Program-made: the position numbers and the translations under genes
Part shown: piece after piece, positions 1-18,738 of the stretch
Layout of the letters: each line of letters begins with the position of its first letter
Position numbering within the stretch: the first letter of the stretch is position 1
Assembly: GCA_903892515.1 (NCBI GenBank)
Contig: CAITIS010000085.1
Coordinates: 1-32,379 of the forward strand
Source of the DNA: an uncultured Planctomycetota bacterium
Lineage (GTDB): Bacteria; Planctomycetota; Phycisphaerae; SM23-33
Direction: 5' to 3'
Length of the DNA: 32,379 nt
The notes under the pieces: generated by a model
What the model saw: the letters and a program-made list of their open reading frames with translations, nothing else
Databases searched by the model: none
Told to the model about the DNA's origin: nothing

Positions 1-207
1 CGTTCGCCATCTCCGGCGTGGTCATGCTGGCGATCCCGCTGACGATCATCGGCATCATGCCGGGCTTCTGGCTGCTATCCAAGCTCACTGGCGGGCACAT
101 CGGCCTCTACGCCAACCCGGTCTTCTTCACCGCCACCGCCATGATCGGCATGATCGCGCTGGCGGGCATCGTGACGCGTAGCTCGATCATCCTGGTGGAC
201 TTCATCC
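1..207. repeat. Direct repeat copy A (~205 bp, RND coding segment); copy B is at 3023-3228
   Basis: Nucleotides 1-207 are ~97% identical to 3023-3228. All ~7 mismatches are synonymous in the RND reading frame. Confidence 0.85.
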
Positions 208-473
208 ACCTGTCACTGTCGCGCGGACGGAGCCTGTTTGACGCCATCATGGAGAGCAGTGTCGTCCGCCTCCGGCCGATTCTGCTGACGGCGGCCACAG
301 CCATGCTCTCAGCCGTGCCCATCACCACCGACCCGGTCTTCTCGGGCCTGGCCTGGGCGCTGATCTTCGGTCTGCTGGCCTCGACGGCCTTCACACTCTT
401 CGTGATTCCGGTGGTGTACTACCTGATCTATGCCAATAAGCCCGGCCATGGGCTGGCGAAGATGGAAGAATAG
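1..473 (+). CDS. RND (AcrB/CzcA-type) efflux transporter permease, C-terminal end; 5'-partial at window edge
   Basis: In-frame from nt 3 to the stop at 471-473. The translation (AIPLTIIGIMPGFWLL...PILLTAATAML...LFVIPVVYYLI) has the hydrophobic pattern of the last TM helices of RND permeases (TM10-12 of AcrB). Confidence 0.75.
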   Translation, partial: FAISGVVMLAIPLTIIGIMPGFWLLSKLTGGHIGLYANPVFFTATAMIGMIALAGIVTRSSIILVDFIHLSLSRGRSLFDAIMESSVVRLRPILLTAATAMLSAVPITTDPVFSGLAWALIFGLLASTAFTLFVIPVVYYLIYANKPGHGLAKMEE

Positions 474-928
474 CTACAGGTTGGCATCTCGCCGGCCTGA
501 TGACGTTGCGGGCGGTGCTCCCGGCTTGATGGAGCTGTGGCTGAAGGCCAGCCACCCCGCTACTTGATGCTCAGGTTGCTGCTCGAAGGCGTTTGCTGCG
601 CCGAACAGAGCCGCCGACGGAGCCGTTCTCGTCGGCCAACGCTTTGGTAATCGCATCAACTCTCGCATGAACAACTCCGATCAGCGTGTTCGGGAATCCA
701 TCCCGTGCTCACAGCGGCCCAGCCATGCTCAGGTCGTACCAGTTGCGGTACTGCTCGCACGATCTGCATTCGCCCCACGGCGTCGCGTCAACGCTCACGT
801 TGCGGTTGGAGATGCCGGTGCCGTTGCTCTTGCCATGCCAGCGATCGTCCTTCTCAGGATCAAGTACTCATGGTACAATCGTTCTTGGTGTCTCAGGCGT
901 TCTTCGCGTCTGGGCAAAGGGAGCAGCC

Positions 929-2797
929 ATGAAGCGTGCCATCATCTCTCTACTGGCTTTTTCATTTCTTTGCGCCGCCCCGGCCAACGCCCTCATGCCG
1001 CTGCAGTACCTGGCACTGCATTGGCAGGACGGCAACATGATGAGTTCCTCCTCCGTCAGCGCCGGCCAGACGATCATCAACACAATGGCAGCCAACGGTT
1101 ACAACACGTTTATCCAGGAGGACTGGCGGTGGGAGTGGTACTGGACGGACCCGTACAACAGGGCCCAGTGGCTGGCCAATGCCCAGACGATCCGCAACCT
1201 GTGCGCGGCCAAGAAGATGATCTACCTGCCATGCGTCGCGGCCATGGGCAATGACGCATCAGTCTTGACGTTCATCAACCGGAACTTAGCCGAGGGCTTT
1301 CTCTCCAAGAACGTGCCGATGTACGTTCACAATGGGCAGATCGTTCCGGTCCTGAACGATGCGACCAACGGGGACCTCGCGAGCCTGCCCTTCGTCTCCA
1401 CATTTGACGCCGTCAACGGAAACGGCATCCCCACAGGCTGGACCTGGATCGACATGCCAGGGACGATGACCTCGCTGGACACCCCCGGGCGTGACGGCGC
1501 CGGTAAATGCCTCAAGATGTGCAACGTCAGCGCGCAAAACGGCATGTGCCGCGTCATGAAGACTATGACCGGCCTGCAGCCCTACCGGCCGTATCACATC
1601 CGGATGTGGATAAAGACGTCGAACTTCAACACCCCTAATTCCTTCTGTTGCAAGGTGGGAGCGACAGATGGCACTTCGCTCCAGATGGCCGACGTCGTTG
1701 ACGCCAATTGGACCTCTCTGGCAAGCACCCAGGGCTGGACGCAATATGACTTCATCTTCAACACCTGCGAATACACGCAAGTCACCCTGTACATCGGCTG
1801 CTGGGGCGGCAGCGGGACGACCAGCAACATTCTCTGGCTCGACGACGTCAGCATCGAACCGCTGGGCTTCTCCAACCCGGTGCGCCGGCCGGGCATGATG
1901 CCCAGTGTCACCAGCGTGGACGGCAAGACGCTGTACATCGAAGGCAAGGACTACAGCACGATCGGCTACCCGGACAACCAGTCCTCGCCCAACCCCGCTA
2001 ACATCTGGAGTCAGCCGCAGATTGTCACCGCCCTGCCCGGCGGGCGGCTGACCGAGAACTCACAGGTGAGGGTGACGTATCACCACACGCAGTCGGTTCT
2101 CTTCTGGGGGGAGATCTGCCCGTGCCTGGCCAATCCCGCTCTGTACGACGAGATCGCCACGGCCATGCACCAGATTCACACGGACTTCAACCCAAGCGGC
2201 TACTTCTTCAACCACGATGAGATGCGTGAGGGCGGACGCGACGAAAGCTGCCTGCGGACCGGCAAGACCCCGGGGGAACTGCTGGCCGATAACATCCGCC
2301 GCTGCCAGAACATGGCCCGCAAGGAGATCGCCCCCAGCAGCCCGGGCAACGGATTCCGCTTTCCGATCATGATGGTCTGGAACGACATGTTCGACAAATA
2401 CCACAACGCCGCCACCACCGGCGGATATTATCTGGTTCGCGGCGCCAACGGCCCGTGGCAGAACTCCTGGCAGGGCCTCGCGCCCGACCTGATCATCTTC
2501 AACTGGAATGCCGGCAGCGCCAACAGCCAGAAGTGGTTCTCGGGCAATTCCAACGTCTCGGGCGATAAGGCCCTCCAGCCCGTGCCCTGCAAGCAGATCC
2601 TCTCCTGCGAAGGCACCAGCCCAACCAGCGTCGATGGCCCGCTCACCACGGCCGCCACGATCACAAATCCCGACGGCTCCTACGGTGTCGTCGGCGTGTG
2701 CTACACGACCTGGGGCGGCTCCTATACCATCGCCCAGATCGCCAACTTCGCCACCGAGGTCAAGAAGTACTGCACGCTGCCGCCGACGCTGCCATAA
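929..2797 (+). CDS. Secreted protein of unknown function (622 aa), N-terminal signal peptide
   Basis: ATG at 929 is preceded by AAAGGGAG and is in frame with the 686-2797 ORF. The N-terminus MKRAIISLLAFSFLCAAPANA is a typical Sec signal (positive n-region, hydrophobic core, ANA cleavage motif). The protein is Trp/Cys-rich and I do not recognise its family. Confidence 0.7.
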   Translation: MKRAIISLLAFSFLCAAPANALMPLQYLALHWQDGNMMSSSSVSAGQTIINTMAANGYNTFIQEDWRWEWYWTDPYNRAQWLANAQTIRNLCAAKKMIYLPCVAAMGNDASVLTFINRNLAEGFLSKNVPMYVHNGQIVPVLNDATNGDLASLPFVSTFDAVNGNGIPTGWTWIDMPGTMTSLDTPGRDGAGKCLKMCNVSAQNGMCRVMKTMTGLQPYRPYHIRMWIKTSNFNTPNSFCCKVGATDGTSLQMADVVDANWTSLASTQGWTQYDFIFNTCEYTQVTLYIGCWGGSGTTSNILWLDDVSIEPLGFSNPVRRPGMMPSVTSVDGKTLYIEGKDYSTIGYPDNQSSPNPANIWSQPQIVTALPGGRLTENSQVRVTYHHTQSVLFWGEICPCLANPALYDEIATAMHQIHTDFNPSGYFFNHDEMREGGRDESCLRTGKTPGELLADNIRRCQNMARKEIAPSSPGNGFRFPIMMVWNDMFDKYHNAATTGGYYLVRGANGPWQNSWQGLAPDLIIFNWNAGSANSQKWFSGNSNVSGDKALQPVPCKQILSCEGTSPTSVDGPLTTAATITNPDGSYGVVGVCYTTWGGSYTIAQIANFATEVKKYCTLPPTLP

Positions 2798-2849
2798 GAA
2801 CGTCGGCAATGGCTGGGTCTCAACGGCCGCTGAGCGCCCGCCGGTTTCG

Positions 2850-3227
2850 CGCACATTCATCAGCGACGGTGGCGGCGTGGCATGGTCAGTGCCGCGCGAT
2901 ATCCGCGCGAGTTTCGGCGGCGAAGGCGAGTGGCAGCTCACGCTGGATGTCTTCCGCGACATGGGCCTGGCCTTTGCGGCCGCCCTGGTGGCTATCTACA
3001 TCCTGCTGGTGGGCCAGACGCGGTCGTTCGCCATCTCGGGCGTGGTCATGCTGGCGATCCCGCTGACGATCATCGGCATCATGCCGGGCTTCTGGCTGCT
3101 GAGCAAGCTAACCGGCGGGCACATCGGCCTCTACGCCAACCCGGTCTTCTTCACCGCCACCGCCATGATCGGCATGATCGCGCTGGCGGGCATCGTGACG
3201 CGTAGCTCGATCATCCTGGTGGACTGA
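2850..3227 (+). pseudogene. Truncated fragment of an RND efflux permease gene; carries direct repeat copy B and ends prematurely
   Basis: The translation (ASFGGEGEWQLTLDVFRDMGLAFAAALVAIYILLVGQTRSFAISGVVMLAIPLTIIG...SIILVD*) matches the TM10 region of RND permeases and extends ~140 bp upstream of what copy A shows. Similarity stops abruptly at 3228, where the frame hits TGA. There is no upstream RND body; the fragment starts right after the 929-2797 gene. Confidence 0.6.
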
Positions 3228-3228
3228 A
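3023..3228. repeat. Direct repeat copy B (see 1-207)
   Basis: Near-identical to 1-207. Similarity ends at 3228 (copy A continues ttcatccacctg, copy B continues tgaagtgcgtatg). Confidence 0.85.
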
Positions 3229-3738
3229 GTGCGTATGAACAACGACCCGGACGAGAGGGCCTGGCATCCGCAGATCGTGGCGACCGACAACGGCGGGGTC
3301 TGCCTGATCTACGAAAAGGGCCTGCGATTTGATCCCAGCACCAAGACCTGGTCGGGCGACTCGGCGATGTATGCCAGGGTTTCAACGAATAGCGGAGAAA
3401 CCTGGGGCCCGGCCCGGCGGATCAGTTCCATCAACGCCCCTAACGGGCGGGCGACGCACGCCAAGAGCTTCGTCTGTGGCCGGCGGATTCACCTCGTTTG
3501 GGGCGACGTCCCGGAAGGTGCGACTCTGCCGAAGCATGCCGGCTACTACGTGACCTCTCCCGACGGGGGCGTGACCTGGAGCGAGCCGGAGCGAGTGTGT
3601 GCGCAGTGGGATGACGCTGCCCCGTGCGCGGTGGTCGGAACGGACACCCGGGCGGTCGTTCTGCTGGCTCATGGCGCCATTTACGCGACGGTCCGCACGA
3701 AACTCCCGGAGCCGCCGGCCGCCAAGCCAGCCGCATAA
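3229..3738 (+). pseudogene. 5'-truncated BNR/Asp-box repeat (sialidase-like glycosyl hydrolase) gene fragment
   Basis: The translation contains two Asp-box motifs (STNSGETW, SPDGGVTW) typical of BNR beta-propeller sialidase-like proteins. It is only 169 aa, begins exactly at the repeat B junction, and has no convincing RBS or start codon. Confidence 0.45.
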
Positions 3739-3882
3739 GTGGCGTGAGTGACTACCGAAGGGAAAGATTCAGATGGCCGCCACTTGTAAGAGTAGCCGCT
3801 GGTGGCCGACCTACAAGTTCATGCGTTTGGCTCCTCTTGGGCGCGTCCGGCGAAATCACACTTGTGCCAGGTGGCGTCTTGC

Positions 3883-5043
3883 CTAGAAATGTCCACCTCT
3901 GCCGAGTTGGCGGGCTTCTTTCCTTGCGGCCTTGCCAGGTGCCCGAAAGCTCCCCTGCCAATTGTCCGGCAGAGGGTCCGTGGAAATCCAGGGGGGGATG
4001 CTGATCCGGAAGTATGTAGCAAGAGCCTGCAAGTATGGCTCGTACATCGCATTCATCTCCCGCAGCTTCTGGTCGGCTGCTTCGCCCTCGTCAACGATGA
4101 CCCCCGCCCTCGCCAATGTGGTCCGCAGTCGGGCCAGCGTTTCGGGTGGGAGGCGGTCGTGTTCCGGCTGTCGCGGCGGAGTCCGAAAGATCACGCAGAG
4201 GTCTACCACCGCGTGGCGAGCCATGGCGAAGGTGAGTTCCGCCTGGCGTTTGCACGGTCTGGCAGGTCCGGCCATTAGGAACGCGCAGCTGTCGAGGACT
4301 GCCGTCAATGCCGCCAGCCACGATTCGTTGTCATGCTGCGAACGAAAGTACGCGAGGATGGGATAAGAGAGGTGCCCTTCGAGAAACTCCGCCGACCATT
4401 GCTCCCATTCGTAGAGGAGTTGCCGCAGCGCCTCCATTCCGCCGTCGTGGCTGTGCCGGCGGAGCATCTCCGCAGCGGTGGGCGGTGAGCCGGCGCGGGC
4501 ATCCAGCAGAGAGATGCTCATCTCGCGCCGTCCGAAAGACTGGTTGAGGGGTGGGAGGTAAGCGATCACCAGAGCGAGGAAGGCAAACCCCATCCCCGAT
4601 TCACATACCACGAGGATGTGGTCCCAAGAGCCCCGGGGCACAACGTCACCCAGCCCGAGCGTGAAGAACGTGGTGCCGCTGAGATACAGGTCGGTGAGAA
4701 ATCCGTAGCTGCCGTCGCGGGCGAGAAAGGCCGAGCCGGCTGCCCAGTGCAGCAGGGCGAAGCCTACGATCAGCCCGGCGGCCCAGATGGTCAGGAGCAA
4801 CAGGATCGACAGCGGCCCGAATACGCTCAGCCAGGTTTCCTGCCACCTCGCCGGAACGATCGATTCAACCATTTTCGTCCAGGCATGCCAGGTGTTGCGG
4901 TAGAACAGGCGGGTAAGTCGAAATCGGCGGGTCACGCGCCGGGGCAGGACGATGGTCTCGAAGCCTTCCCACAGAACCGCCGCGATCAGACCGATGCCAC
5001 ATAAGGTCGCGATGATCGGCACGGGCTCTCCCTTCAATGTCAC
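3883..5043 (-). CDS. Ion-channel family membrane protein (potassium-channel-like pore, filter-like TLGLGD) with a ~250-aa cytoplasmic C-terminal domain
   Basis: Minus-strand ORF 3883-5253. Hydrophobic helices flank FFTLGLGDVVP, which resembles a K+ channel selectivity filter (T-x-G-[YFL]-G-D). The start is uncertain: GTG at 5043 (GGGAG 7 nt upstream) is preferred over the far-upstream ATG at 5253; ATG at 4872 is an alternative. Confidence 0.5.
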   Translation of the reverse strand: MTLKGEPVPIIATLCGIGLIAAVLWEGFETIVLPRRVTRRFRLTRLFYRNTWHAWTKMVESIVPARWQETWLSVFGPLSILLLLTIWAAGLIVGFALLHWAAGSAFLARDGSYGFLTDLYLSGTTFFTLGLGDVVPRGSWDHILVVCESGMGFAFLALVIAYLPPLNQSFGRREMSISLLDARAGSPPTAAEMLRRHSHDGGMEALRQLLYEWEQWSAEFLEGHLSYPILAYFRSQHDNESWLAALTAVLDSCAFLMAGPARPCKRQAELTFAMARHAVVDLCVIFRTPPRQPEHDRLPPETLARLRTTLARAGVIVDEGEAADQKLREMNAMYEPYLQALATYFRISIPPWISTDPLPDNWQGSFRAPGKAARKEARQLGRGGHF

Positions 5044-5274
5044 ACCGCGGACTCCCGGAGAAGGTTCTCGATCTTGGCATCCAGATTTCGAGCGACCACC
5101 AGAGCCTCCGAACCTATGTCTGGGCCTTGCCGCCGGTGGCCATTCTTGATGCAATTCTAGGCCGGAGGCAGAGATGGAATCTCCGCAGGGAAACGCACGG
5201 ACCGACCTGCAGCGGCCCAATCGCCTAAAATGGCTTGTGGAGATGACAGGCAAGCGGTTTCGAGGTAGACGGCC

Positions 5275-6003
5275 ATGAGCAGCCCACAGAAGACAGCCAT
5301 CGTGACGGGAGCGTCTCAGGGGATCGGGGCGGGAATCGTGAAGGCGTTCGTCGAACGGGGTTTCAACGTCGTCGCCAATTCCCGGAAGATGACCCAGTCC
5401 ACCGAGGTCGCGGCCTCCAACCAGGTGGCTCTGTTAGACGGTGACATCGGCGAACCGGCAACTGCCGCCAATATCGTCGAGACGGCGATGGCCCGGTTTG
5501 GCGCCATCGACGTGCTGGTCAATAACGCCGGCGTCTTCTTCACCAAGCCGTTCACGGAGTACACGGCCCAGGACTTCAAGTCCATCATCTCGACGAACAT
5601 CGATGGCTTCCTATATGTCACCCAGCTCTCCATCAAGCAGATGTTAGCGCAGAAGAGCGGCGGGAACATCGTCACGATCACGGCCGCGCTTGCTCGCAAC
5701 CCGATCCGAGGCGTCGCGGCGGCGGTGCCGATGCTCACCAAGGGCGGTCTTGAAACGATCACCCAACACCTGGCGCTGGAGTACGCCAAAGACGGCATCC
5801 GCGTGAACGCCGTCGCGCCGGGGGCCGTCTACACGCCGCTTCACACGGATACTCCCAAGGACGTGATGGAGGGCCTCTCGCCGATGGGTATGCCTTCGAC
5901 GGTCAAGGACATCGCCGACGCAGTCATGTATCTGATCGATGCCGTGACGGTCACTGGCCACATCTTGTACGTTGACGGCGGCGCTCATTTCGGCCGGTGG
6001 TAA
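5275..6003 (+). CDS. Short-chain dehydrogenase/reductase (SDR) family oxidoreductase
   Basis: N-terminal TGASQGIGAGI Rossmann motif (TGxxxGIG), NNAG motif, and an ...YxxxK-like catalytic region; 242 aa is typical of classical SDRs. Confidence 0.85.
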   Translation: MSSPQKTAIVTGASQGIGAGIVKAFVERGFNVVANSRKMTQSTEVAASNQVALLDGDIGEPATAANIVETAMARFGAIDVLVNNAGVFFTKPFTEYTAQDFKSIISTNIDGFLYVTQLSIKQMLAQKSGGNIVTITAALARNPIRGVAAAVPMLTKGGLETITQHLALEYAKDGIRVNAVAPGAVYTPLHTDTPKDVMEGLSPMGMPSTVKDIADAVMYLIDAVTVTGHILYVDGGAHFGRW

Positions 6004-6291
6004 GCAAGCGGAGCCCCTGACTGTATGGAGCTTCGTCACATCCTCTGAGAGGAACTCGCGGCGATGAATGCCACAGGCATTCACATCGACCAGGCCTGCC
6101 ACAGACACTGCAAGGGCAACTGCTTGGGCGTTCTGGCCACGGCGCGACTTGATTTTCCGTAGTGCCGCTTCCTAGCCTTGGTGAGGCGAGAGTTGTGGCC
6201 TCGTTCAGAATCGCGATCTCTCGACCCATGTCTAGTGGGTCTGGCCACTTGACGACCGCAGATGAGGCCGATTCGGCGGAAGGAGCAGACG

Positions 6292-6546
6292 ATGTGCCTG
6301 GGCGTCCCCGGAAAGGTCACGCAAATCTATCGCGAGCATGACGTGCTGATGGGCGAGGTGGACTTCGGCGGCGTCACCAAGAACGTCTGCCTGGAGCATG
6401 TGCCGCAGGTGCGCATAGGCCAATACGTGATCGTTCATGTGGGGTTTGGCCTGTCAATCCTGGATGAAGCCGAGGCCAACCAGGTCTTCGCCTTCCTGGA
6501 AGGCATGAGGCAGGCCCAGGAGCCGGGCGTCCAGGAGGCGGTATGA
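6292..6546 (+). CDS. hypC: [NiFe]-hydrogenase maturation factor HypC/HupF
   Basis: Begins MCLGVPGKV, the invariant MC(L/I)(G/A)(L/V)P N-terminus of HypC. AAGGAG lies 8 nt upstream. The in-frame ATG at 6262 would add 10 residues before the essential Cys2, so it is rejected. The stop overlaps the hypD start (ATGA). Confidence 0.85.
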
Positions 6547-7697
6547 AGTTCCTGGAGGAATACCGTGATCCGGCCGCGGCCAAGAAGCTCCGACGCGCCA
6601 TCCAAGCCGCCACCACCAAGCCGTGGACGATTATGGAAGTCTGCGGCGGGCAGACGCACACCATCGTGAAGTATGGGCTCGAAGAACTCCTGCCGCAGGG
6701 CATCGAGTTGCTGCACGGGCCGGGGTGCCCCGTCTGCGTCACCCCCTTGGAGATGATCGACAAGGCCATCCGAATCGCCTCGCAGCCTGACGTGATCTTC
6801 TGCTCATTCGGGGACATGATCCGCGTGCCGGGCAGCCATCGCGACCTTTCTGCCGTCAAGGCCGCCGGCGGCGATGTCCGCATCGTCTACTCGCCGCTGG
6901 ACAGCCTGCAGATCGCCCAGGAGCATCCCGACAAGTCGGTAGTGTTCTTTGCGGTGGGCTTTGAGACGACCGCGCCGGCCAACGCCATGGCGGTGTGGCA
7001 GGCCAAGCGGCGAGGGCTGGAGAACTTCTCCATGCTGGTCTCGCAAGTGCTGGTCCCCCCTGCCATGACGGCGATTCTCTCATCCCCGAGCCATCGCGTG
7101 CAAGGCTTCCTGGCGGCTGGGCATGTCTGCGCGGTCATGGGTTATGAGGAGTACATCCCGCTGGCCCAGCGTTTCAACGTGCCGATCGTGGTGACCGGCT
7201 TTGAGCCGCTGGACTTGCTCGAAGGCATTTATCGCTGCATTTGCATGCTGGAGGCAGGCCGCTCGGGCGTGGAGAACCAGTACTCGCGCGTCGTAAGCCG
7301 CCCAGGCAACCTGCCGGCGCGGCGGTTGATCGAGGACGTATTCGAGGTCACCGACCGCACTTGGCGCGGAATCGGCATGATCCCCCGCAGCGGCCTGGGG
7401 CTGGCGCCCTCCTACGCCCGCTTCGACGCCGAGCGGCGGTTCGATCTGTCGGATATACACGTTTGCGAGTCACCGGCCTGCATCAGTGGGCAAATCCTCC
7501 AAGGGCTGAAGAAGCCGCGTGAATGTCCAGCCTTTGGCCGGCAGTGCACGCCCCGCACGCCGCTGGGGGCGACCATGGTCTCAGGCGAGGGCGCTTGCGC
7601 CGCCTATTACCACTACAGCCCACCCTCGGACTGCCTGGCATGTCGGCTGGCCCCAGGCGCCGCCGACGGCGGACGAACTGGCTGTAAGCCCGCCTAG
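6543..7697 (+). CDS. hypD: [NiFe]-hydrogenase maturation factor HypD
   Basis: CGGQTH and GPGCPVCV motifs, a C-terminal Cys cluster (CPAFGRQC...GACAAYY), 384 aa. Confidence 0.9.
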
Positions 7698-7744
7698 AAT
7701 GCTTGGAAAGCTCCGTAATGACACCTCATTAGAAGGAGAACCTC

Positions 7745-8830
7745 ATGTCCGATGTGGCGACTATTCGGGCCAAGCGGCCTCCGGATGTAAAGGAGGTTCA
7801 CATCCTCTGGCTCACCGCCGGCCTGGGCTGCGACGGCGATTCCGTCTCGATCACGGCCGCAACTCTGCCGAGCATCGAGGACGTGGTGATGGGGGCGATT
7901 CCCGGCCTGCCCAAGGTGCACCTGCACAATGCCGTGCTGGCATACGAAGTTGGCGATGATTTCATGAAGTTCTTCCATCAAGCCGACGAGGACAAGCTCG
8001 GGCCGTTCGTGCTGGTGGTCGAGGGCTCGATCCCCAATGAGAAGGTCAAACAGCAGGGCTACTGGGCGGCCATGGGCACCGATGCCACAACTGGCCAACC
8101 TATCACCACATGCGCATGGATCGACCGGCTGGCGCCCAAGGCTGTGGCGGTCGTCGCGATCGGCACCTGCGCCACCTATGGCGGCATCCATGCCATGGCG
8201 GGCAATCCGACGGGCTGCATGGGCCTGGCCGACTATCTCGGCTGGAACTTCAAGTCCAAGGCCGGCATTCCGATCGTGAACGTGCCTGGCTGTCCGGTGC
8301 AACCTGACAACTTCATGGAAACCGTGCTGTACCTGCTGCACCAGGTGGCCGGGCTGGCCCCGATGATCCCGCTGGACAAGGAACTACGCCCCACCTGGCT
8401 GTTCAGCGCCCGCACCGTGCACGAGGGCTGCGACCGCGCCGGCTACTACGAGCAGAGCCAGTTTGCCAAGGAATATGGCCGGCCTGAGTGCCTGGTGAAG
8501 ATGGGCTGCTGGGGGCCGGTGGTTGACTGCAACGTCACCAAGCGGGGCTGGATGGACGGCATCGGCGGTTGCCCGAACGTCGGCGGCATCTGCATCGCCT
8601 GCACCATGCCCGGCTTCCCGGACAAGTTCATGCCCTTCATGGACAAACCACCCGGAGCGAACCTTTCCAGCACGGGCGTGGCGGCGTATGGCCATTTGAT
8701 CCACTGGCTGCGCAACATCACGCGGAGTTCGATGAACAAGGAACCCAAGTGGCGGCATAACCGCCCGGAATTGACCACCGGGTACAGGCCCACGACCTAC
8801 TCGCCATCGAATGAGAGGAGCCGTTCATGA
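7745..8830 (+). CDS. hhyS: [NiFe]-hydrogenase small subunit, no Tat signal (group 1h/5-type, HhyS-like)
   Basis: AAGGAG RBS. N-terminal CDGDS proximal-cluster Cys motif, GTCATYGG and a C-terminal Cys cluster (CWGPVVDC...CPNVGGICIAC). No RRxFxK twin-arginine leader. The stop overlaps the large-subunit start. Confidence 0.88.
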   Translation: MSDVATIRAKRPPDVKEVHILWLTAGLGCDGDSVSITAATLPSIEDVVMGAIPGLPKVHLHNAVLAYEVGDDFMKFFHQADEDKLGPFVLVVEGSIPNEKVKQQGYWAAMGTDATTGQPITTCAWIDRLAPKAVAVVAIGTCATYGGIHAMAGNPTGCMGLADYLGWNFKSKAGIPIVNVPGCPVQPDNFMETVLYLLHQVAGLAPMIPLDKELRPTWLFSARTVHEGCDRAGYYEQSQFAKEYGRPECLVKMGCWGPVVDCNVTKRGWMDGIGGCPNVGGICIACTMPGFPDKFMPFMDKPPGANLSSTGVAAYGHLIHWLRNITRSSMNKEPKWRHNRPELTTGYRPTTYSPSNERSRS

Positions 8831-10635
8831 CTACCGTACAGGTGCAACGCGATGCCGCCCAACGGTCGGGCAACCTCGTGGACAAGTCCTGGGATCCCAT
8901 CACCCGCATCGTCGGCAGCCTGGGAATCCACACCAAGATCGACTTTGACAACCGCGTCGTCCAGGAATGCTTCAGCACCTCCTCGCTCTTCCGCGGCTAC
9001 AGCGTCTTCATGAAGGGCAAGGATCCGCGCGACGCCCACTTCATCACCAGCCGTATCTGCGGCATCTGCGGCGACAACCACGCCACCTGCGCTGTGTATG
9101 CTCAAAACATGGCCTTTGGAGTTACCCCGCCGCCCATGGCCGAGTGGATCATCAACCTGGGCGAGGCGGCCGAGTACATGTTCGACCACAACATCTTCCA
9201 GGACAACATGGTCTGCGTGGACTTCTGCGAGCAGATGGTCGCCGAGACCAACCCCAGCGTCCTGGCCAAGGCCGAAAGGACGCTGGCCCCCCACGCCAGC
9301 ATTCATGGCTACCGGACCATCGCCGACATCATGCGATCCTTGAACCCGTTTACCGGCGATTTCTATCGCCAGGCGCTGCAAGTCAGCCGCATGACCCGGG
9401 AAATGTTCTGCCTCATGGAAGGCCGGCACGTGCATCCCTCCACGCTATATCCCGGCGGGGTCGGCACGGTGCCTACGCCGCAGTTGTTCACGGACTACCT
9501 CGTGCGGCTGATGAAGTACATCGACTTCATGAAGATGTGCGTGCCGTTCCACGATGACCTGTTTGACTTCTGGTACGAAGCGCTGCCGGGCTACGAGAAA
9601 GTCGGCAACCGGCGGATACAGTTGGCCTGCTGGGGATCGTTCAACGACCCGTACAAGTGCGATTACACGTACAAGAACATGGCCCAGTGGGGACGGGCCA
9701 TGACCGTGACGCCCGGGATTGTCATCGACGGCAAGCTGGTCACCAACAGCCTGGTAGACATAAACCTGGGCATCCGAATCCTGCTGGGCAGCTCCTTCTA
9801 TCAGGACTGGCAAAACGGCGAGACCTTCGTGGAGAAGGATCCGCTGGGTAATCCGGTGGACCGGCGGCACCCGTGGAACCAGACCACCACGCCCAAACCG
9901 CAGAACCGCGACTTCCACGACAAGTACAGTTGGGTCATGTCGCCGCGCTGGTTCAACAAGGCCAGTGGCGAAACCCTGGCGATGGACACTGGCGGCGGCC
10001 CATTGGCCCGGCTGTGGTCCACGGCCCTGTCTGGATTGGTGGACAACGGCTACATCAAGGCCACCGGCCACAGCATCAAGATGCTCCTGCCCAAATCCGC
10101 CCTGCGGCCAGAAGTCGAGCTGGAGTGGAAGATCCCGCAGTGGGCCAACACGCTGGAGCGGGATCGAGCCCGCACGTATTTCCAGGTGTTTGCGGCAGCG
10201 TCCGCCATGTACTTCGTCGAGCAGGCGTTGAAGGAGTTCCACGCCGGCGACACGCGTACGTGGAGCGACTTCAAGGTGCCCGACAACGCCATTGGCTGCG
10301 GGTTCCACGAATCGGTCCGAGGCGTGCTGTCGCACCACGTGGTGATCCGCGATGGCAAGATCGCCAACTATCATCCGTATCCGCCGACGTGCTGGAACGC
10401 CAGTCCGCGCGACAGCCTGGGAACCCCGGGCCCCTACGAAGACGCCGTCCAGGGCTCGCCATTGTTCGAAGAAAACGGACCGGGCAAGTTCAAGGGCATC
10501 GACATCATGCGGACCGTGCGCAGCTTCGACCCCTGCCTGCCATGCGGCGTGCACATGTACACCGGCGCGGGCAAACTGCTGGAGGCCTACCACACGCCTA
10601 TGTTTGGAGTCCCAAATGACTCACGTGCAGAGTGA
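8827..10635 (+). CDS. hhyL: [NiFe]-hydrogenase large subunit, group 1h (formerly group 5) high-affinity type (HhyL-like)
   Basis: 602 aa. N-terminal L1 motif TSRICGICGDNH and C-terminal L2 motif SFDPCLPCGVH; these are the NiFe-ligating CxxC pairs and, as I recall them, are the published group 5/1h signatures. GAGGAG RBS; ATGA overlap with hhyS. Confidence 0.9.
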   Translation: MTTVQVQRDAAQRSGNLVDKSWDPITRIVGSLGIHTKIDFDNRVVQECFSTSSLFRGYSVFMKGKDPRDAHFITSRICGICGDNHATCAVYAQNMAFGVTPPPMAEWIINLGEAAEYMFDHNIFQDNMVCVDFCEQMVAETNPSVLAKAERTLAPHASIHGYRTIADIMRSLNPFTGDFYRQALQVSRMTREMFCLMEGRHVHPSTLYPGGVGTVPTPQLFTDYLVRLMKYIDFMKMCVPFHDDLFDFWYEALPGYEKVGNRRIQLACWGSFNDPYKCDYTYKNMAQWGRAMTVTPGIVIDGKLVTNSLVDINLGIRILLGSSFYQDWQNGETFVEKDPLGNPVDRRHPWNQTTTPKPQNRDFHDKYSWVMSPRWFNKASGETLAMDTGGGPLARLWSTALSGLVDNGYIKATGHSIKMLLPKSALRPEVELEWKIPQWANTLERDRARTYFQVFAAASAMYFVEQALKEFHAGDTRTWSDFKVPDNAIGCGFHESVRGVLSHHVVIRDGKIANYHPYPPTCWNASPRDSLGTPGPYEDAVQGSPLFEENGPGKFKGIDIMRTVRSFDPCLPCGVHMYTGAGKLLEAYHTPMFGVPNDSRAE

Positions 10636-11137
10636 CGCGGCCCGGCAGATGGCCCAGATCGACACGTTGATCGCCCAGATCGATCAATCAGCCGACCCGG
10701 TAGTCGGCCAACAGATCGAGCAGATCGCGCGGATCATCATGAGCCTGCATCGGGACGGACTGGGGCGGATCATCGACCGGCTGAGTGCCGCAGGCTCGAC
10801 CGGCGATGCGTTGCTGGCCGCCTTTGCCGACGACGCGGTGGTCGGGCCCCTGCTGCAACTCTACGACCTGCATCCGGTCGGCGTCGATGAGCGAATCCGC
10901 CGGGCCCTGGAGAGCGTGCAACCGTTTCTCCAGTCGCACGGCGGCGAGGTCGAACTGGTGGGCATCGACGAAGGCACGGTGAACCTGCGCATGCACGGCA
11001 GTTGCGACGGGTGCCCGGCGTTTGTCGATTCGCTCAAGCTGGCCATCGATAAGGCGGTGCGCGACGCCGCGCCCGAGATGGGCGAGATTCATATCGAAGC
11101 CGCGGCACAACCCGCCAGGCCACGCGGAGCGTCCTGA
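10616..11137 (+). CDS. NifU-domain (Nfu-type Fe-S cluster assembly) protein associated with the hydrogenase operon
   Basis: ATG at 10616 with GGAG 6 nt upstream; overlaps the hhyL 3' end by 20 nt. The C-terminal half has the NifU C-terminal domain pattern (GGEVELVGIDEGTVNLRMHGSCDGCPAF...LKLAIDKAV). Confidence 0.6.
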   Translation: MTHVQSDAARQMAQIDTLIAQIDQSADPVVGQQIEQIARIIMSLHRDGLGRIIDRLSAAGSTGDALLAAFADDAVVGPLLQLYDLHPVGVDERIRRALESVQPFLQSHGGEVELVGIDEGTVNLRMHGSCDGCPAFVDSLKLAIDKAVRDAAPEMGEIHIEAAAQPARPRGAS

Positions 11138-11454
11138 TGGAGAACCGATTCGATTCCGAACGATCCGACGTGGCCGTGACCGAGGCGATGACCGCCCATG
11201 GTCCCATCCGGCCGGGAGACCACGTTCTGCTTCAGCCTTTCGATACTGGCGACATCCTCGACCTGGCCCTTCGTGGCAAGACGGCGATTGTCGAGGCCAT
11301 CGAGCAGGATGTGGAAGATCATCTGTACCTGGCCGTCACCCTCGACGATGATCCGGGGCGTGACTTCGGGCACCTGCGCAAGCCTGGCCACTGCTTCTTC
11401 TTTCGCCCCGAGGAAGTCACACTGCTGGGCCAATCCGAGCAGGAGGCCCCATGA
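11137..11454 (+). CDS. Conserved hypothetical protein (105 aa, acidic), hydrogenase-operon associated
   Basis: Translationally coupled on both sides (TGATG at 11135-11139; ATGA at 11451-11454). No recognisable motif. Confidence 0.5.
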   Translation: MENRFDSERSDVAVTEAMTAHGPIRPGDHVLLQPFDTGDILDLALRGKTAIVEAIEQDVEDHLYLAVTLDDDPGRDFGHLRKPGHCFFFRPEEVTLLGQSEQEAP

Positions 11455-12047
11455 ACGAAGGCTCACCGCGCATCCTGGTGGCCGGTCTGGGCAACATCTT
11501 CCTGGGCGATGATGCCTTCGGCGTGGAAGTCGCCCGGCGGCTGTTGCAGGCCCCCCCGCCCGGGGACGTCCGCGTGGTGGACTTCGGCATCGCTGGCATC
11601 GACCTGATCTACTCCCTGCTCGATGGCTACGACCTGGTCATTCTCATCGACGCGGTCGCGCGGGGCGAGGGGCCCGGCACGCTGTACGTAATTGAGCCCG
11701 AGATGCCCGACGACGGCCAGAACAACACCTCTGTGACTGAAATGCTCGATCCCCACGACATGGACCCGGCCAAGGTGCTGCGCATGGTGACCAGCTTGGG
11801 TGGCCGTGTCGGCAGAGTGCTGCTGGTCGGCTGCGAGCCCACGCCTATGGACGAACACGCGGACATGAGCGATGGCCTGAGCGAGCCGGTCCGTAACGCC
11901 GTGGAACACGCGGTCGAGTTGACTATGCGACTGGTCGCCGACGCACACAAAGATGACGGACGAACTCTATCGGCATGCACTGTGGCCGGAGACCCTGCGG
12001 CCCTCGCGCAGCCGATGTCGGCGGGCCTGAAGGAGGCAAACCAATGA
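11451..12047 (+). CDS. hupD: Hydrogenase maturation endopeptidase (HyaD/HybD/HupD family)
   Basis: AGGAGG RBS. N-terminal ILVAGLGNIFLGDDAFG matches the GxGNxxxxDDGxG protease signature. 198 aa. Confidence 0.85.
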   Translation: MNEGSPRILVAGLGNIFLGDDAFGVEVARRLLQAPPPGDVRVVDFGIAGIDLIYSLLDGYDLVILIDAVARGEGPGTLYVIEPEMPDDGQNNTSVTEMLDPHDMDPAKVLRMVTSLGGRVGRVLLVGCEPTPMDEHADMSDGLSEPVRNAVEHAVELTMRLVADAHKDDGRTLSACTVAGDPAALAQPMSAGLKEANQ

Positions 12048-12178
12048 AGCCCTTACTGCGACTTGTAGAGACAATTGTCGGCGTGGCGCTCTGGCCGCTG
12101 GAGATGCTGGCGGTGCCGATCGGCATGCTCATGGGCATCCGAGACTTTCGGCGCTACCTCCGCATCAGGAGCATGTAG
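12044..12178 (+). CDS. Small hydrophobic ORF (44 aa), translationally coupled to the hydrogenase protease
   Basis: ATG at 12044 overlaps the protease stop (ATGA). A strong SD (GAAGGAGG) lies 7-8 nt upstream. The peptide MKPLLRLVETIVGVALWPLEMLAVPIGMLMGIRDFRRYLRIRSM is one predicted TM helix plus a basic tail. Confidence 0.3.
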   Translation: MKPLLRLVETIVGVALWPLEMLAVPIGMLMGIRDFRRYLRIRSM

Positions 12179-12261
12179 CCCAAACGACCGACGCCGCAAC
12201 GCCGCTCACCGGCGTTTGCCGAGCGCACGGCCCCAGCAGCCCATTGAACAAGGTCGTCTTC

Positions 12262-12339
12262 GTGTCGCGGGCGTCTCGCCCGCGCCAGTAATGCCGAGAT
12301 TCCAAGGGTTTCCGGACGCGGGCGAGACGCCCGCGACAC
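12262..12339. repeat. Perfect 23-bp inverted repeat (GTGTCGCGGGCGTCTCGCCCGCG ... CGCGGGCGAGACGCCCGCGACAC) with a 32-nt spacer; likely a bidirectional terminator/REP-like element between convergent genes
   Basis: Read directly from the sequence. Each arm also contains the small hairpin GCGGGC-GTCTC/GAGAC-GCCCGC. It sits between the end of the hydrogenase operon (+) and the 3' end of the GH42-like gene (-). Confidence 0.7.
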
Positions 12340-12374: not shown

Positions 12375-13772
12375 CTACACCACTTCAAATTTGCCCAAGT
12401 GCAGCCAGCGATCGGAGTATTCCGTCTTGTTGGCGAAGCTGACCTTGGCTTGCTGGCTCTGGGCATCGATCAAGCCGGCCGACAGCTCGACCAGTCCTGG
12501 CCGCAAGCCTGAAGGCATGGTCAGCGATCGTTCGAGACACACATCGCCAGGCAGCCAGGTGCGAACGTCCACGTCCTTGAAGGGCACGATGAAGGAGTTG
12601 TCGTCCTGGCGGAATCGCAGGGCGAAGTCGTATCGACGGTACAGCGGGGCGATACCGGTGTTCTCGATCCAGCAATCGAAAGCCGACTGGCCGTTGAGCT
12701 TGACCTTGGCCTCAAACTTGGCTTGGCGGAAGACGTACCGGTACCCGATCTTGTCGCAGAAGGTCTGCAGCCGATCCATCCAGGCCTCGGGCAGGCGGCA
12801 GTACTTGGGCATGAAGTACGTCAGGTGGTACTTGTACGCCTGCTCGAAAATGAAGTCGAGATCGAACTTCTGCTTGTGCCACCACATGGGGCTGGGGCCA
12901 ACCTCGAAGAACACCGGCCCGGTCTTCCAGGCCTCGGTCACGCCCGAGGCCAGCAGGTGCTGCGGATAGGCGTCGTAATGATGGTTCCACGAGACGTCTT
13001 TGGTGACGGAATCGGAGCCGGGGGCGTCCAGGTCGCCAAAGGCGTTCCAGCGCCAGCCGCCCCTGCGATCTTTCTGAAGCCCGGCGCGCATCTGCTTACC
13101 GGAGAATTCCCAGAGCTTGATCGTGGTGGGAAACGCTTCGCAGAATACATCCGCAAAGCGCGCGATCTGCTCGTCGGTCATGTCGGCGTCGCCCTCGCCC
13201 CAGGGGCCCATGAAGGCGCAGGTGTAGTTCTCGACCTGGGGATGGCCGTCAAAGCGCCGGCCCAGTTCGCGGATGAACTCGCTCCAGTGTTCAAAATACT
13301 CTGGCGAGTTGGGTTCGGGCATGAAATGCTCGACGTGCTCCCAGCCGGTGAAGTGATATTGCACCATCGGGTACTTGTCGCGATACCATTTTGGCACCAT
13401 CGGCTGGAGGAACCCGCCGAATGCCATGGCGCGGAAGGCCAGCTTCTGGCCGCGCTCCTTGCATACCTGCAGCGACTTCTCGATCACCGAGAAGTCGTAC
13501 CGGCCTTTTTCAGGCTCCATCAATTCCCAGAACCAGCGGCAGTACGCCACCGTCGTGGGCAGGTAGCCGTTGGTGACCAGGTCTTCCTGGCCGCTGGTCA
13601 GCTGCTTGAGTGTGATCGGCGAGGGAAACTGCTCCGGGCCGCATTCGGAGTACTCCATTCGCGGGTACAACTCATCGCCATTGAAGTGCTGGAAAGTGCA
13701 GCAGCCCTTGTGCGGGTTGGCCAGGTACGCATCGCTGTACGCCGGTCGGACTCGGACGAATTTCTCTGCCAC
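12375..13772 (-). CDS. Glycoside hydrolase, GH42-like TIM-barrel (DUF4874/DUF4832-type), cytoplasmic
   Basis: 465 aa with no signal peptide. The region YCRWFWELMEPEKGRYDFSVIEKSLQVCKERGQKLAFR follows the GH42 beta-galactosidase-like pattern (W..lEPe.G.ydF...d..i..a...G..v.l). Confidence 0.55.
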   Translation of the reverse strand: MAEKFVRVRPAYSDAYLANPHKGCCTFQHFNGDELYPRMEYSECGPEQFPSPITLKQLTSGQEDLVTNGYLPTTVAYCRWFWELMEPEKGRYDFSVIEKSLQVCKERGQKLAFRAMAFGGFLQPMVPKWYRDKYPMVQYHFTGWEHVEHFMPEPNSPEYFEHWSEFIRELGRRFDGHPQVENYTCAFMGPWGEGDADMTDEQIARFADVFCEAFPTTIKLWEFSGKQMRAGLQKDRRGGWRWNAFGDLDAPGSDSVTKDVSWNHHYDAYPQHLLASGVTEAWKTGPVFFEVGPSPMWWHKQKFDLDFIFEQAYKYHLTYFMPKYCRLPEAWMDRLQTFCDKIGYRYVFRQAKFEAKVKLNGQSAFDCWIENTGIAPLYRRYDFALRFRQDDNSFIVPFKDVDVRTWLPGDVCLERSLTMPSGLRPGLVELSAGLIDAQSQQAKVSFANKTEYSDRWLHLGKFEVV

Positions 13773-13871
13773 TGTCTACCTCGGTTCTGTATGTGAATGC
13801 GCGGAACGATTTGCAGTCACCGCCGATGCGCGGCCAATACCCGCGCCACCGGCCTGGAATTCAAGGCCGCG

Positions 13872-14648
13872 TCACGGGCTGTCAGAGCCCGCGGCTGCCC
13901 GAAGGATTGCGTCGCGGTCAAATACATGAATGGCCGCCCTGCCGTCGCCATCGGTAATCAGGCAGTGCACCTGCGGCGGCGGCAGGAAGTACAGAATCCC
14001 GGACTTGTTGAGTTTCGTCTGGTCGGCCAGCACGATCACCTGCTGGGCCAAGCGTGCCGCCAGCTTCTTCAGTGGTATCTCCCCGGCCGAGGCCCGGGTG
14101 AGCCCGCGCTTGAGGTCAAAGCCCGCCGCCCCCAGGAACGCCTTGTCCAGCCGAAACGATGCGAGGCACTCTTCGGCGATGTGCCCCACCACGGCCCTGA
14201 GGTCGCGCCGCATCTGGCCACCCAGCAGAATCGTCTCGATGCCCGGGGCTTCAGCCAATTCCGTCGCCAGCGGGATGGAAGGTGTCACGATGGTCAAGGC
14301 CTTGCGCCCAATCAGCAGCGGCGCCATGGCCAGGACGGTGGTGCCGGCATCCAGGTAGATCACCTCGCCGTCCTGGATCATCCCAACGGCCGCTGAGGCG
14401 ATCTGTCGCTTGGCGCGCGCGTTGTGCTTCTGGCGGATGCGGTAGTCCAATTCGATCTGGCTGTACATCTCCGAGACGGCGCCGCCATGGGTGCGACGAA
14501 TCAGCCCCTTGGCTTCGAGATGATCCAGATCGCGACGAACGGTCATCTCCGAGACGCCCAGAACCTTCGAGAGGGCCTGCACGGACTCGTAGCCGCTGTC
14601 GGTGAGCAGCTCGAGAACCCTTTGGCGACGTTGTTCAGATGAATCCAT
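13872..14648 (-). CDS. DeoR/GlpR-family transcriptional regulator
   Basis: N-terminal wHTH (RRQRVLELL...ESVQALSKVLGVSEMTVRRDLDHLE) and a C-terminal DeoR sugar-phosphate-binding domain; 258 aa. Divergent from the 14831-25348 gene array. Confidence 0.85.
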   Translation of the reverse strand: MDSSEQRRQRVLELLTDSGYESVQALSKVLGVSEMTVRRDLDHLEAKGLIRRTHGGAVSEMYSQIELDYRIRQKHNARAKRQIASAAVGMIQDGEVIYLDAGTTVLAMAPLLIGRKALTIVTPSIPLATELAEAPGIETILLGGQMRRDLRAVVGHIAEECLASFRLDKAFLGAAGFDLKRGLTRASAGEIPLKKLAARLAQQVIVLADQTKLNKSGILYFLPPPQVHCLITDGDGRAAIHVFDRDAILRAAAGSDSP

Positions 14649-16096: not shown

Positions 16097-16120
16097 TCGT
16101 GGGCTGCGGCCCAAGCTTGC

Positions 16121-16255: not shown

Positions 16256-16261
16256 CTGTAT

Positions 16262-17317: not shown

Positions 17318-17328
17318 GAGGAACTGCA

Positions 17329-18675: not shown

Positions 18676-18738
18676 GCGGCCCTCGGCGAGGTGCATCGAG
18701 CATATGGATTCCTTCACTAAATAGGCAATGGCGAGTTT

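What the first reader, a model, noticed from the sequence alone, without database searches (positions are those of the whole stretch)
1..3738. Rearrangement scar: duplicated RND-permease segment with synonymous-only divergence, flanking a secreted-protein gene and fused to a truncated BNR/sialidase fragment
Nucleotides 1-207 and 3023-3228 are ~97% identical, and every mismatch is a synonymous codon change. That implies two paralogous, once-selected RND genes, or gene conversion, rather than a recent slip. Copy A continues to a normal RND C-terminus and stop. Copy B carries ~170 bp more upstream RND sequence but stops abruptly at 3228, directly abutting a 5'-truncated Asp-box (sialidase-like) ORF. 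Similarity ends at a sharp breakpoint. The ~2.8-kb interval between the copies holds only the gene for a Trp/Cys-rich secreted protein of unknown function. This looks like a deletion/recombination junction between two RND loci. Alternatively it could be a collapsed or chimeric assembly, and that should be ruled out.
Basis: seen in the sequence. Interest (0 to 1): 0.55.

Follow-up and report, generated by a model that had tools for sequence, protein, structure and literature searches.

The report
Recombination scars flanking a secreted-protein gene
The repeat is real: a short leftover piece of a second drug-pump (RND) gene sits 3 kb downstream of a related pump gene's end, with an intact secreted sugar-binding enzyme gene between them and a truncated BNR gene after it. 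This is an ordinary patchwork of old rearrangements in an uncultured planctomycete, and it also confuses metagenome assemblers.

Summary
Window 1-201 and 3025-3225 match at 195/201 bases. The 6 mismatches fall in 5 codons and are all synonymous. The breakpoint is 3225|3226 and creates a TGA stop.

The window is a whole 32,379-nt contig, so copy A is cut by the contig end. A contig from another sample (L093) shows copy A running 222 nt further left. There it is about 10% diverged from copy B (dS 0.34, dN/dS 0.13), while the last 112 nt are identical. Copy B (2803-3225) is therefore an internal remnant of a second, once-functional RND gene whose right end was homogenised by conversion or recombination.

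Copy B starts within 5 nt of the native stop of an intact secreted CBM-containing gene, S. It ends fused to the last roughly 165 codons of a 400-aa-class BNR propeller gene. The S|B and B|BNR junctions recur at 100% identity in independent assemblies, including MEGAHIT k=141 contigs, so they are not chimeras.

Other contigs carry both cross pairings: A-copy→BNR, and S→B-copy→RND 3' end. These are either real deletion and duplication/circle recombinants of the 3,024-bp unit, or mis-resolved repeats. Only reads can decide.

No close relatives exist for a synteny test. The finding is an ordinary rearrangement scar of low to moderate interest.

The parts
1..473 (+). 3' end of RND permease gene 'A'. 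It is cut by the contig start and is intact through to its native stop.
   Evidence: Pfam ACR_tran, profile positions 888-1020/1021, E=6e-18. The C-terminus aligns with homologues through the KPGHG motif. The window is the whole contig.
1..201 (+). Repeat copy A (bA), the A-type haplotype: C14 and A/T/C/C/T at positions 77-89.
   Evidence: It is identical to L093 328-528.
474..928 (.). Spacer between the RND stop and S. It holds no credible gene or RNA. A promoter-like site lies at 851-879. Contig ends cluster at 501-505 (TGACG).
   Evidence: L088 starts at 501. L005 and the 3012-nt contig end at 505.
929..2797 (+). Gene S: an intact 622-aa secreted protein with a Sec signal peptide. It has an alpha/beta scaffold with an inserted CBM4/9/22-like beta-sandwich. 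It is a dispersed paralogue of a three-gene tandem array found elsewhere.
   Evidence: Only 5 homologues were found. Paralogues of 53-65% identity lie in L006/L007. The native C-terminus CTLPPxLP* is conserved. CBM_4_9 or GH20 are found in family members. AF2 pLDDT is 71, with CBM4/CBM22 fold hits.
2798..2802 (.). Junction J1, between the S stop codon and the start of the RND remnant.
   Evidence: S ends natively at 2797. RND protein homology starts at 2799. DNA homology to copy A starts at 2803, and there is no homology upstream.
2803..3225 (+). RND remnant 'B': aB at 2803-3024 plus repeat copy bB at 3025-3225. It is an internal fragment of a second RND gene.
   Evidence: Pfam ACR_tran, profile 842-938/1021. 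Alignment to homologues. Divergence from copy A is 23/222 in 'a', 6/89 in b-left and 0/112 in b-right.
2877..3227 (+). 116-aa ORF with a GTG start, called on the remnant. Its stop TGA (3225-3227) is created by junction J2.
   Evidence: (P0121, found on 7 contigs).
3226..3738 (+). 3' remnant of a BNR/Asp-box beta-propeller gene. The called ORF is 3235-3738, 167 aa. About 240-285 N-terminal residues are missing.
   Evidence: Pfam BNR_2 and BNR_4 partial matches. Best homologues align at 250-400 of 402 aa and 286-440 of 445 aa. tblastn matches P0131 residues 239-398. No N-terminal part lies elsewhere in the window.
3883..5043 (-). Context: ion-channel-like gene. From here rightwards the contig is ordinary chromosome (SDR, hypCD, [NiFe]-hydrogenase, sugar-utilisation genes).

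Best explanation
The left 3.7 kb of this planctomycete contig is a patchwork of illegitimate-recombination scars, with later homologous exchange between two of the pieces.

**Order of the pieces**
1. The intact 3' end of RND permease gene A.
2. A 455-nt spacer.
3. An intact secreted CBM-containing, glycosidase-like gene, S.
4. A 423-nt internal remnant (B) of a different RND gene.
5. The last roughly 165 codons of a BNR propeller gene.

**What is shown**
- B is bounded by two sharp junctions. One lies within 5 nt of the S stop. The other is at 3225|3226 and creates a stop codon.
- Both junctions recur identically in independent assemblies.
- A and B diverged under purifying selection, yet they are identical over their last 112 nt.

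**What is inferred**
- B's parent gene was destroyed by at least two breakage-and-joining events.
- Conversion or crossover with A homogenised B's right end.
- The two pieces now act as direct repeats 3,024 nt apart. That makes the S-bearing unit prone to RecA-type deletion, duplication or excision. This would explain contigs with the S-less form (A-copy joined to BNR) and contigs with the duplication/circle junction (S, then B-left, then A-right, then the RND 3' end).
- The remnants themselves (the 116-aa and 167-aa ORFs) are most likely non-functional.
For: - **Repeat and synonymous mismatches:**
- **Window is the whole contig:**
- **Copy-B side reproduced at 100% identity:** L088 (MEGAHIT k141) covers 501-12283. 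L004 (k141), L003, L002, L091/L092 (Logan), L094 and two further contigs without DNA carry it too. At k=141 the B-specific variants at 3101-3113 and the junction at 3226 lie within single k-mers.
- **RND stop to spacer to S link:** also present in L001, from another sample.
- **Copy A extension:** L093 gives 23/222 mismatches to B, dS 0.34, dN 0.045, and then 0/112.
- **S is complete:** its native C-terminus is conserved.
- **BNR is truncated:**
- **Normal genes of this RND subfamily** are about 1,150 aa and follow a membrane-fusion-protein gene (L095, L096).
- **Cross pairings:** L093 pairs aA-bA with BNR. L005 and the 3012-nt contig carry the 206-aa ORF P0122, which pairs S-aB with the RND 3' end.
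- **No mobility genes, tRNAs or Rfam hits:**
Against: - The upstream part of gene A was never seen. The only sequence left of copy A is 105 nt in L093. It folds into two strong hairpins (z=-7) and may be non-coding, so A might itself be a fragment.
- The link between the RND 3' end and the spacer (positions 501-505) is a point where other contigs start or end. A and B may therefore not be neighbours in every genome of the population.
- The cross-paired contigs come from metaSPAdes-style assemblies. The near-identical core (62 + 112 nt exact stretches) exceeds k=55, so they could be mis-resolved repeats and not real recombinants.
- No reads, no coverage data and no close relatives were available.
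Confidence: 0.6

Rival explanations
1. Assembly artefact. The contig end wrapped once around a cycle in the assembly graph, or two strains were collapsed. On this view copy A at 1-201 and copy B are the same single genomic segment.
For: Copy A lies at the very end of the contig. Other assemblies give roughly 3.0-kb contigs close to the 3,024-nt period (3012 and 2969 nt). They break inside or beside the repeat at 125, 3093, 3127, 3173 and 3185. L001's end runs into a third RND variant.
Against: The copies differ at 6 positions, and by about 10% in the extension. They also have different right flanks, and each flank is seen in several assemblies. k=141 contigs pass through copy B into BNR without a break. 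The A-type haplotype (C14 plus 77-89) is independently present in L093.
Confidence: 0.07
2. The two copies are real but are not neighbours in most genomes. RND gene A with its native downstream DNA, and the S-B-BNR locus, lie at separate places or in separate strains. The join at 501-505 seen in the window and L001 is a minority rearrangement or a mis-join.
For: L088 starts exactly at 501. L005 and the 3012-nt contig end exactly at 505, leaving a 5-nt overlap TGACG. That pattern is expected when alternative sequences exist on both sides.
Against: The join is continuous in two assemblies from different samples, the window and L001. Assemblers do not join contigs on 5-nt overlaps. The alternative contexts were never recovered.
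Confidence: 0.15
3. The 3,024-bp unit (spacer, S, RND fragment) is a discrete mobile or circular element, or a cassette that integrated by recombination with the RND sequence.
For: The graph cycle is 3,024 nt, and the 3012-nt contig almost equals one turn. The ORF P0122, which reads S, then B, then the RND 3' end, is found in two assemblies. Contig ends cluster at 501-505. S is a dispersed copy of a gene family otherwise found in one tandem array.
Against: The unit and the window carry no replication, transposase or integrase gene, no terminal inverted repeats and no tRNA target. No copy was found elsewhere in GTDB representative genomes or JGI metagenomes. A circle is equally expected as a passive by-product of recombination between the direct repeats.
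Confidence: 0.08
4. A recent tandem or segmental duplication of part of a single RND gene, with the few differences being new mutations.
For: 97% identity over the visible 201 nt, in direct orientation, 3 kb apart.
Against: The extension of the repeat is about 10% diverged, with dS 0.34 and dN/dS 0.13. One difference is a two-base serine codon switch. Copy B does not continue into the 3' part of the gene.
Confidence: 0.04

Closest known systems
Gene remnants (pseudogene fragments) left by illegitimate recombination or deletion in bacterial chromosomes
   Same: The coding fragments have sharp breakpoints. A stop codon is created at a junction. The flanking genes are intact. No mobility genes are present.
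   Different: Three fragments from three gene families are packed around one intact gene. One remnant has kept or regained perfect identity with a neighbouring homologue.
Duplication, amplification or deletion by RecA-dependent unequal crossing-over between direct repeats (classical gene duplication-amplification; my own knowledge of the field, not checked in the literature here)
   Same: Direct repeats with a 112-nt perfect stretch flank a 3-kb unit. Contigs exist with exactly the two junction types expected of reciprocal products.
   Different: The repeats are diverged fragments of two RND genes, not rRNA operons or IS copies. The recombinant forms are known only from short metagenomic contigs and could be assembler errors. 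No coverage or selection evidence is available.
Gene conversion between paralogous genes
   Same: There is a tract of complete identity (112 nt or more) next to sequence with dS of 0.2-0.34. The change in divergence along the repeat is abrupt.
   Different: One partner is a dead fragment. The tract abuts a rearrangement breakpoint, so a single crossover, rather than conversion, is equally possible.
Repeat-induced contig ends and cycles in de Bruijn-graph metagenome assemblies
   Same: A repeat copy lies at the contig end. There are contigs of about one period, breaks at repeat borders, and an end that runs into another RND gene's conserved segment (L001).
   Different: The internal copy and both of its junctions are reproducible at k=141 and across samples. 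The underlying repeat is therefore genomic and not an artefact.

Membership tests
RND permease (Pfam ACR_tran / AcrB-CzcA type) | Full-length polypeptide of about 1,050-1,150 aa covering the whole profile (12 TM helices and two large periplasmic loops) | tested here: not met
   Tested on copy B. Only profile positions 842-938/1021 are present. The fragment is bounded by the S stop and the junction TGA. Intact relatives total about 1,146 aa (L095).
RND permease (Pfam ACR_tran / AcrB-CzcA type) | Native C-terminal end, for copy A | tested here: met
   Profile positions 888-1020/1021. It aligns to the end of homologues, including the KPGHG motif.
RND permease (Pfam ACR_tran / AcrB-CzcA type) | Copy A has the upstream roughly 900 codons and a membrane-fusion-protein gene upstream | not testable with these tools
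   The contig starts inside the gene. Only 105 nt upstream of the homologous part are seen, in L093, and they are ambiguous. The protein search appeared to return no targets longer than about 1.75 times the query, so full-length proteins were invisible.
BNR / sialidase-like beta-propeller | Asp-box motifs (S-x-D-x-G-x-T-W) | tested here: met
   STNSGETW and SPDGGVTW occur in the 167-aa ORF. BNR_2 scores 32.7 bits against a cut-off of 31.4.
BNR / sialidase-like beta-propeller | Complete propeller (about 390-445 aa in the closest homologues) with an N-terminal signal | tested here: not met
   The ORF aligns only to 250-400/402, 286-440/445 and 219-355/392 and to P0131 residues 239-398. No N-terminal part lies elsewhere in the window.
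Direct-repeat-mediated duplication/deletion unit | Direct repeats with a perfect stretch long enough for homologous recombination | tested here: met
   Exact stretches of 112 nt and 62 nt in direct orientation, with 3,024-nt spacing.
Direct-repeat-mediated duplication/deletion unit | Both reciprocal recombinant junctions present in the population | tested here: inconclusive
   L093 carries A-left joined to BNR. L005 and the 3012-nt contig carry S/B-left joined to A-right and the RND 3' end. All of these are short contigs from assemblies in which the repeat core exceeds the likely k.
Direct-repeat-mediated duplication/deletion unit | Copy-number difference of the unit relative to its flanks (coverage) | not testable with these tools
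   No reads or coverage values are available.
Mobile element (IS, transposon, integron cassette or small plasmid) | Transposase, integrase or replication gene, and terminal inverted repeats | tested here: not met
   No such Pfam hits anywhere in the window. No inverted repeats at the unit's borders. No tRNA genes.
Mobile element (IS, transposon, integron cassette or small plasmid) | Target-site duplication at the borders | tested here: inconclusive
   A 5-nt overlap, TGACG (501-505), lies between contig ends. The element that would lie between them was not recovered.
Glycoside hydrolase with CBM_4_9 module (for protein S) | Significant match to a curated catalytic or CBM family | tested here: inconclusive
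   S itself has no Pfam hit. Four of 6 family members hit CBM_4_9 and one hits GH20. The AF2 model (pLDDT 71) has a CBM4/22/16-like sandwich. No catalytic residues were tested.

The most novel reading that the evidence does not exclude
The two diverged RND pieces work as a natural 'amplifiable unit'. In the sampled population the 3,024-bp segment carrying the secreted CBM protein would then exist in zero-copy, one-copy and two-or-more-copy (or circular) forms, generated by homologous recombination across a 112-nt identical core. The dosage of this rare secreted enzyme would therefore vary between cells and samples.
Probability: 0.4. Interest if true: 0.35.

Novelty: new member of a known kind. 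Interest (0 to 1): 0.25.

Why it matters
The main value is as a caution and a worked example.
- A contig-terminal repeat that looks like either a 'scar' or a 'mis-assembly' can be resolved a long way by comparing independent assemblies.
- It shows that a dead gene fragment can stay recombinationally active with its living homologue.
- If the cross-paired contigs are real, the locus is a natural case of copy-number polymorphism of a secreted carbohydrate-active protein in an uncultured planctomycete, and it can be tested directly with the public reads.
- It does not reveal a new kind of system.

Tried and rejected
- **Synteny in relatives.** S has no relative in 185,579 GTDB representative genomes. 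HypD's best matches there are only about 70% identical and spread over many phyla. None has BNR, ion-channel or S homologues nearby. The test could not be done.
- **Finding the full-length RND gene A.**
  - The protein search listed no target above 360 aa for a 206-aa query, which looks like a length limit of about 1.75 times the query.
  - A padded query, S fused to the RND part, returned no RND hits at all.
  - Partial proteins at contig ends are not indexed.
  - An exact 41-mer from the remnant had no match in JGI metagenomes.
- **A stand-alone 'mini-RND' family of about 205-220 aa.** Rejected. Two such hits on long contigs (P0075, P0079) were checked. Both are pieces of full RND genes split by frameshifts in long-read assemblies.
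- **Homology between the sequence upstream of copy A (L093 1-105) and the 3' end of S.** None above chance.
- **The L093 hairpin motif as a repeated element in the window.** Not found.
- **Coding or RNA content of the 474-928 spacer.** Nothing found.
- **Mobile-element genes in the window.** None found.
- **Literature search for the sample identifiers.** Nothing relevant.


Full report
**1. Checking the observation**

The repeat is real. Window 1-201 and 3025-3225 match at 195/201 positions in direct orientation, 3,024 nt apart. It is the only sizeable repeat in the 32-kb window.
- The six mismatches lie at copy-A positions 14, 77-79, 86 and 89. They fall in five codons of the RND reading frame and all are synonymous. 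One is a two-base TCC/AGC serine switch.
- Positions 90-201 are identical in both copies.
- Similarity ends at 201|202 and 3225|3226, not at 207/3228. In copy B the last shared T plus the next two bases form the stop TGA at 3225-3227.
- Copy A continues to a normal RND C-terminus and stop at 473. It matches Pfam ACR_tran positions 888-1020 of 1021.

**2.

The window is a complete contig. The 116-aa ORF on copy B occurs on 7 contigs in the public collection, and the longest is 32,379 nt. Copy A is therefore cut by the contig start, and the visible 201 nt understate the repeat.

**3. Anatomy**

*RND remnant B.* In copy B the RND-homologous reading frame starts at NVGNGW, nt 2799. This is the point where homologues leave a hypervariable periplasmic linker.

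*Gene S.*
- The gene upstream (929-2797, 622 aa, Sec-type signal peptide) ends with its native C-terminus. The motif CTLPPxLP-stop is shared with its paralogues. Junction J1 therefore lies within about 5 nt after the S stop.
- S belongs to a very small family. Only five homologues turned up in the 5.8-billion-protein search.
- Its three closest relatives (53-65% identity) form a tandem array next to a GH4 gene and a microcompartment locus, on contigs from the same samples.
- Family members hit CBM_4_9, and one hits GH20.
- An AlphaFold model (pLDDT 71) shows a CBM4/22/16-like beta-sandwich inserted in an alpha/beta scaffold.
- S is thus a probable secreted carbohydrate-active protein, not merely a Trp/Cys-rich unknown.

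*BNR remnant.*
- Downstream of the junction at 3225|3226, the ORF 3235-3738 (167 aa, two Asp-boxes) aligns only to the C-terminal roughly 150 residues of BNR propeller proteins of 390-445 aa.
- About 240-285 N-terminal residues are missing and are not found elsewhere in the window.
- In the BNR frame the junction falls right after the W of an Asp-box-like position. A microhomology such as TGGACT may therefore have mediated the join. This is inference only, because the parental BNR sequence is unknown.

*Surroundings.*
- The spacer 474-928 has no credible gene, Pfam hit or Rfam hit. It has one promoter-like site at 851-879, which is no more than chance gives.
- The rest of the contig is ordinary chromosome: ion channel, SDR, hypC/D, a [NiFe]-hydrogenase, and sugar-utilisation genes.
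- There are no transposase, integrase or tRNA genes.

**4. Is it an assembly artefact?**

Independent assemblies settle the copy-B side.
- L088, a MEGAHIT k141 contig from another sample, equals window 501-12283 at 100%. It runs through S, remnant B and the BNR fragment without a break.
- L004 (k141), L003, L002, L094, two Logan contigs and two further contigs carry the same junctions.
- At k=141 the B-specific variants at 3101-3113 and the junction at 3226 lie within single k-mers. S-B-BNR therefore exists on real molecules.
- The link from the RND 3' end through the spacer to S is also present in L001, from a different sample.

The chimera or collapse reading is rejected for these junctions.

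**5. The other copy, and its history**

L093 is a 1,319-nt scaffold from yet another sample. It carries, in order:
- 105 nt unrelated to S;
- an RND segment homologous to 2803-3024 with 23 mismatches;
- a segment 100% identical to window 1-201, including C14 and the A-type bases at 77-89;
- the BNR fragment and the start of the next gene, to window position 4016, at 100%.

L093 therefore shows copy A's leftward extension. Divergence between A and B by region:

| Region | Mismatches | Rates |
|---|---|---|
| 'a' (2805-3024) | 23/219 | dS 0.34, dN 0.045, dN/dS 0.13 |
| b-left (3027-3113) | 6/87 | – |
| b-right (3114-3224) | 0/111 | P(no synonymous change) about 3e-4, or 4e-3 with the lower local rate |

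The b-right region holds 29 synonymous sites.

So B descends from a separate RND gene that evolved under purifying selection. Its right end was later made identical to A by conversion or crossover. A recent duplication of one gene is excluded.

**6. Population-level structure**

All four pairings of left context (aA or aB) with right context (RND 3' end or BNR) occur in some assembly.

| Pairing | Where seen |
|---|---|
| aB→BNR | window, L003, L004, L088; robust |
| A-type→RND 3' end | the window's left end |
| aB→RND 3' end | L005, and a 3012-nt contig encoding the 206-aa ORF P0122 |
| aA→BNR | L093 |

- L005 switches from B-type (G14) to A-type (77-89) inside the 62-nt exact stretch.
- L093 must switch inside the 112-nt exact stretch.
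- These are exactly the junctions expected from unequal crossing-over or excision between the direct repeats. One is an S-less deletion form. The other is a duplication or circle junction of a 3,024-bp unit.
- They are equally what a k≤55 assembler could produce by mis-resolving a 187-nt near-identical core.
- I put roughly even odds on real recombinants. Reads are needed to decide.

**7. Unexplained**

- Contig ends cluster at 501-505. L088 starts exactly at 501. L005 and the 3012-nt contig end exactly at 505, sharing TGACG. This pattern implies alternative sequences on both sides in the same populations. A polymorphic insertion with a 5-bp duplication, or a microhomology join, would fit. Neither alternative sequence was recovered.
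- The 105 nt upstream of copy A in L093 fold into two strong hairpins with a shared stem (z=-7), yet they are open in the RND frame. They could be a palindromic insert in the hypervariable loop or non-coding DNA. Whether gene A is full-length therefore remains unknown.
- L001's left end carries a third, consensus-like variant with two amino-acid changes. It is probably a run-on into another RND gene's conserved segment.

**8. Comparison with what is known**

- Two short RND C-terminal 'genes' on long contigs were checked. Both are frameshift-split full genes in long-read assemblies. There is therefore no support for a stand-alone mini-RND family.
- Normal loci of this subfamily have a membrane-fusion-protein gene followed by a permease of about 1,150 aa (L095, L096).
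- The closest known kinds are gene remnants from illegitimate recombination, gene conversion between paralogues, and duplication or deletion mediated by direct repeats.
No close relative exists in GTDB representatives, and the population is absent from JGI metagenomes.

**9. Verdict**

The feature is a genuine but ordinary rearrangement scar, with a conversion tract and possibly an unstable 3-kb unit. The interest score is 0.25.

Noticed in passing
window 501-505: Contigs from other samples start exactly at 501 (L088) or end exactly at 505 (L005 and a 3012-nt contig), overlapping by TGACG. This suggests alternative flanks here, such as an insertion polymorphism or a microhomology junction.
   Followed up: partly
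L093:1-105: The sequence just upstream of copy A of the RND segment forms two strong hairpins that share the stem CATGGTCA/TGACCATG (DNA fold z=-7). It is nevertheless open in the RND frame. The motif is not repeated in the window.
   Followed up: partly
L006:3256-9231 and L007:5026-11001: Three tandem paralogues of the secreted protein S (627, 616 and 626 aa) lie next to a GH4 gene and a bacterial-microcompartment locus (EutN, class II aldolase, aldehyde dehydrogenase). The contigs come from the same samples. The family is otherwise nearly absent from public data.
   Followed up: partly
L001:1-57 (window 125-181): The end of this contig carries a third variant of the conserved RND segment, with 8 differences and two amino-acid changes towards the family consensus. 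It is probably a run-on into another RND gene.
   Followed up: partly
window 6290-12050: A hypC-hypD-[NiFe]-hydrogenase small and large subunit-NifU-like-HycI cluster. The best HypD matches in GTDB are only about 70% identical and are scattered over many phyla (Pirellulaceae, Ignavibacteriales, Chloroflexota, Actinomycetota and others).
   Followed up: partly
window 12262-12339: A long GC-rich inverted repeat (arms of about 23 nt, roughly 30-nt loop) lies between convergent genes. The MEGAHIT contig L088 ends inside it, at 12283.
   Followed up: no
window 32136-32239: An AT-rich 20-nt tandem repeat (TTTGATCTAAAGAAGAAGGC, 5.3 copies) lies close to the right end of the contig.
   Followed up: no
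window 20095-20200: Two adjacent 24-nt units, each present twice in tandem, lie in an intergenic stretch upstream of the DeoC/PfkB genes.
   Followed up: no
window 12375-31829: A sugar-utilisation neighbourhood: GH42-like/DUF4832 protein, DeoR regulator, GH1, DeoC aldolase, PfkB kinase, MFS transporter, a 939-aa protein with an agarase-CBM-like domain, an aldo-keto reductase with a 4Fe-4S domain, and an SPFH protein. Several large ORFs have no Pfam hit.
   Followed up: no
L095:3216-6660 and L096:3140-6618: In long-read metagenome assemblies the orthologous RND genes are split into two or three ORFs (927+219 aa; 640+129+205 aa). These are probably frameshift errors, and they mimic short stand-alone RND C-terminal genes in protein databases.
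   Followed up: yes
window 4016 and 2735: Several independent contigs end at 4016 (L093, L094) or start at 2735 (L003, L004). This hints at further strain-level variants at these points.
   Followed up: no
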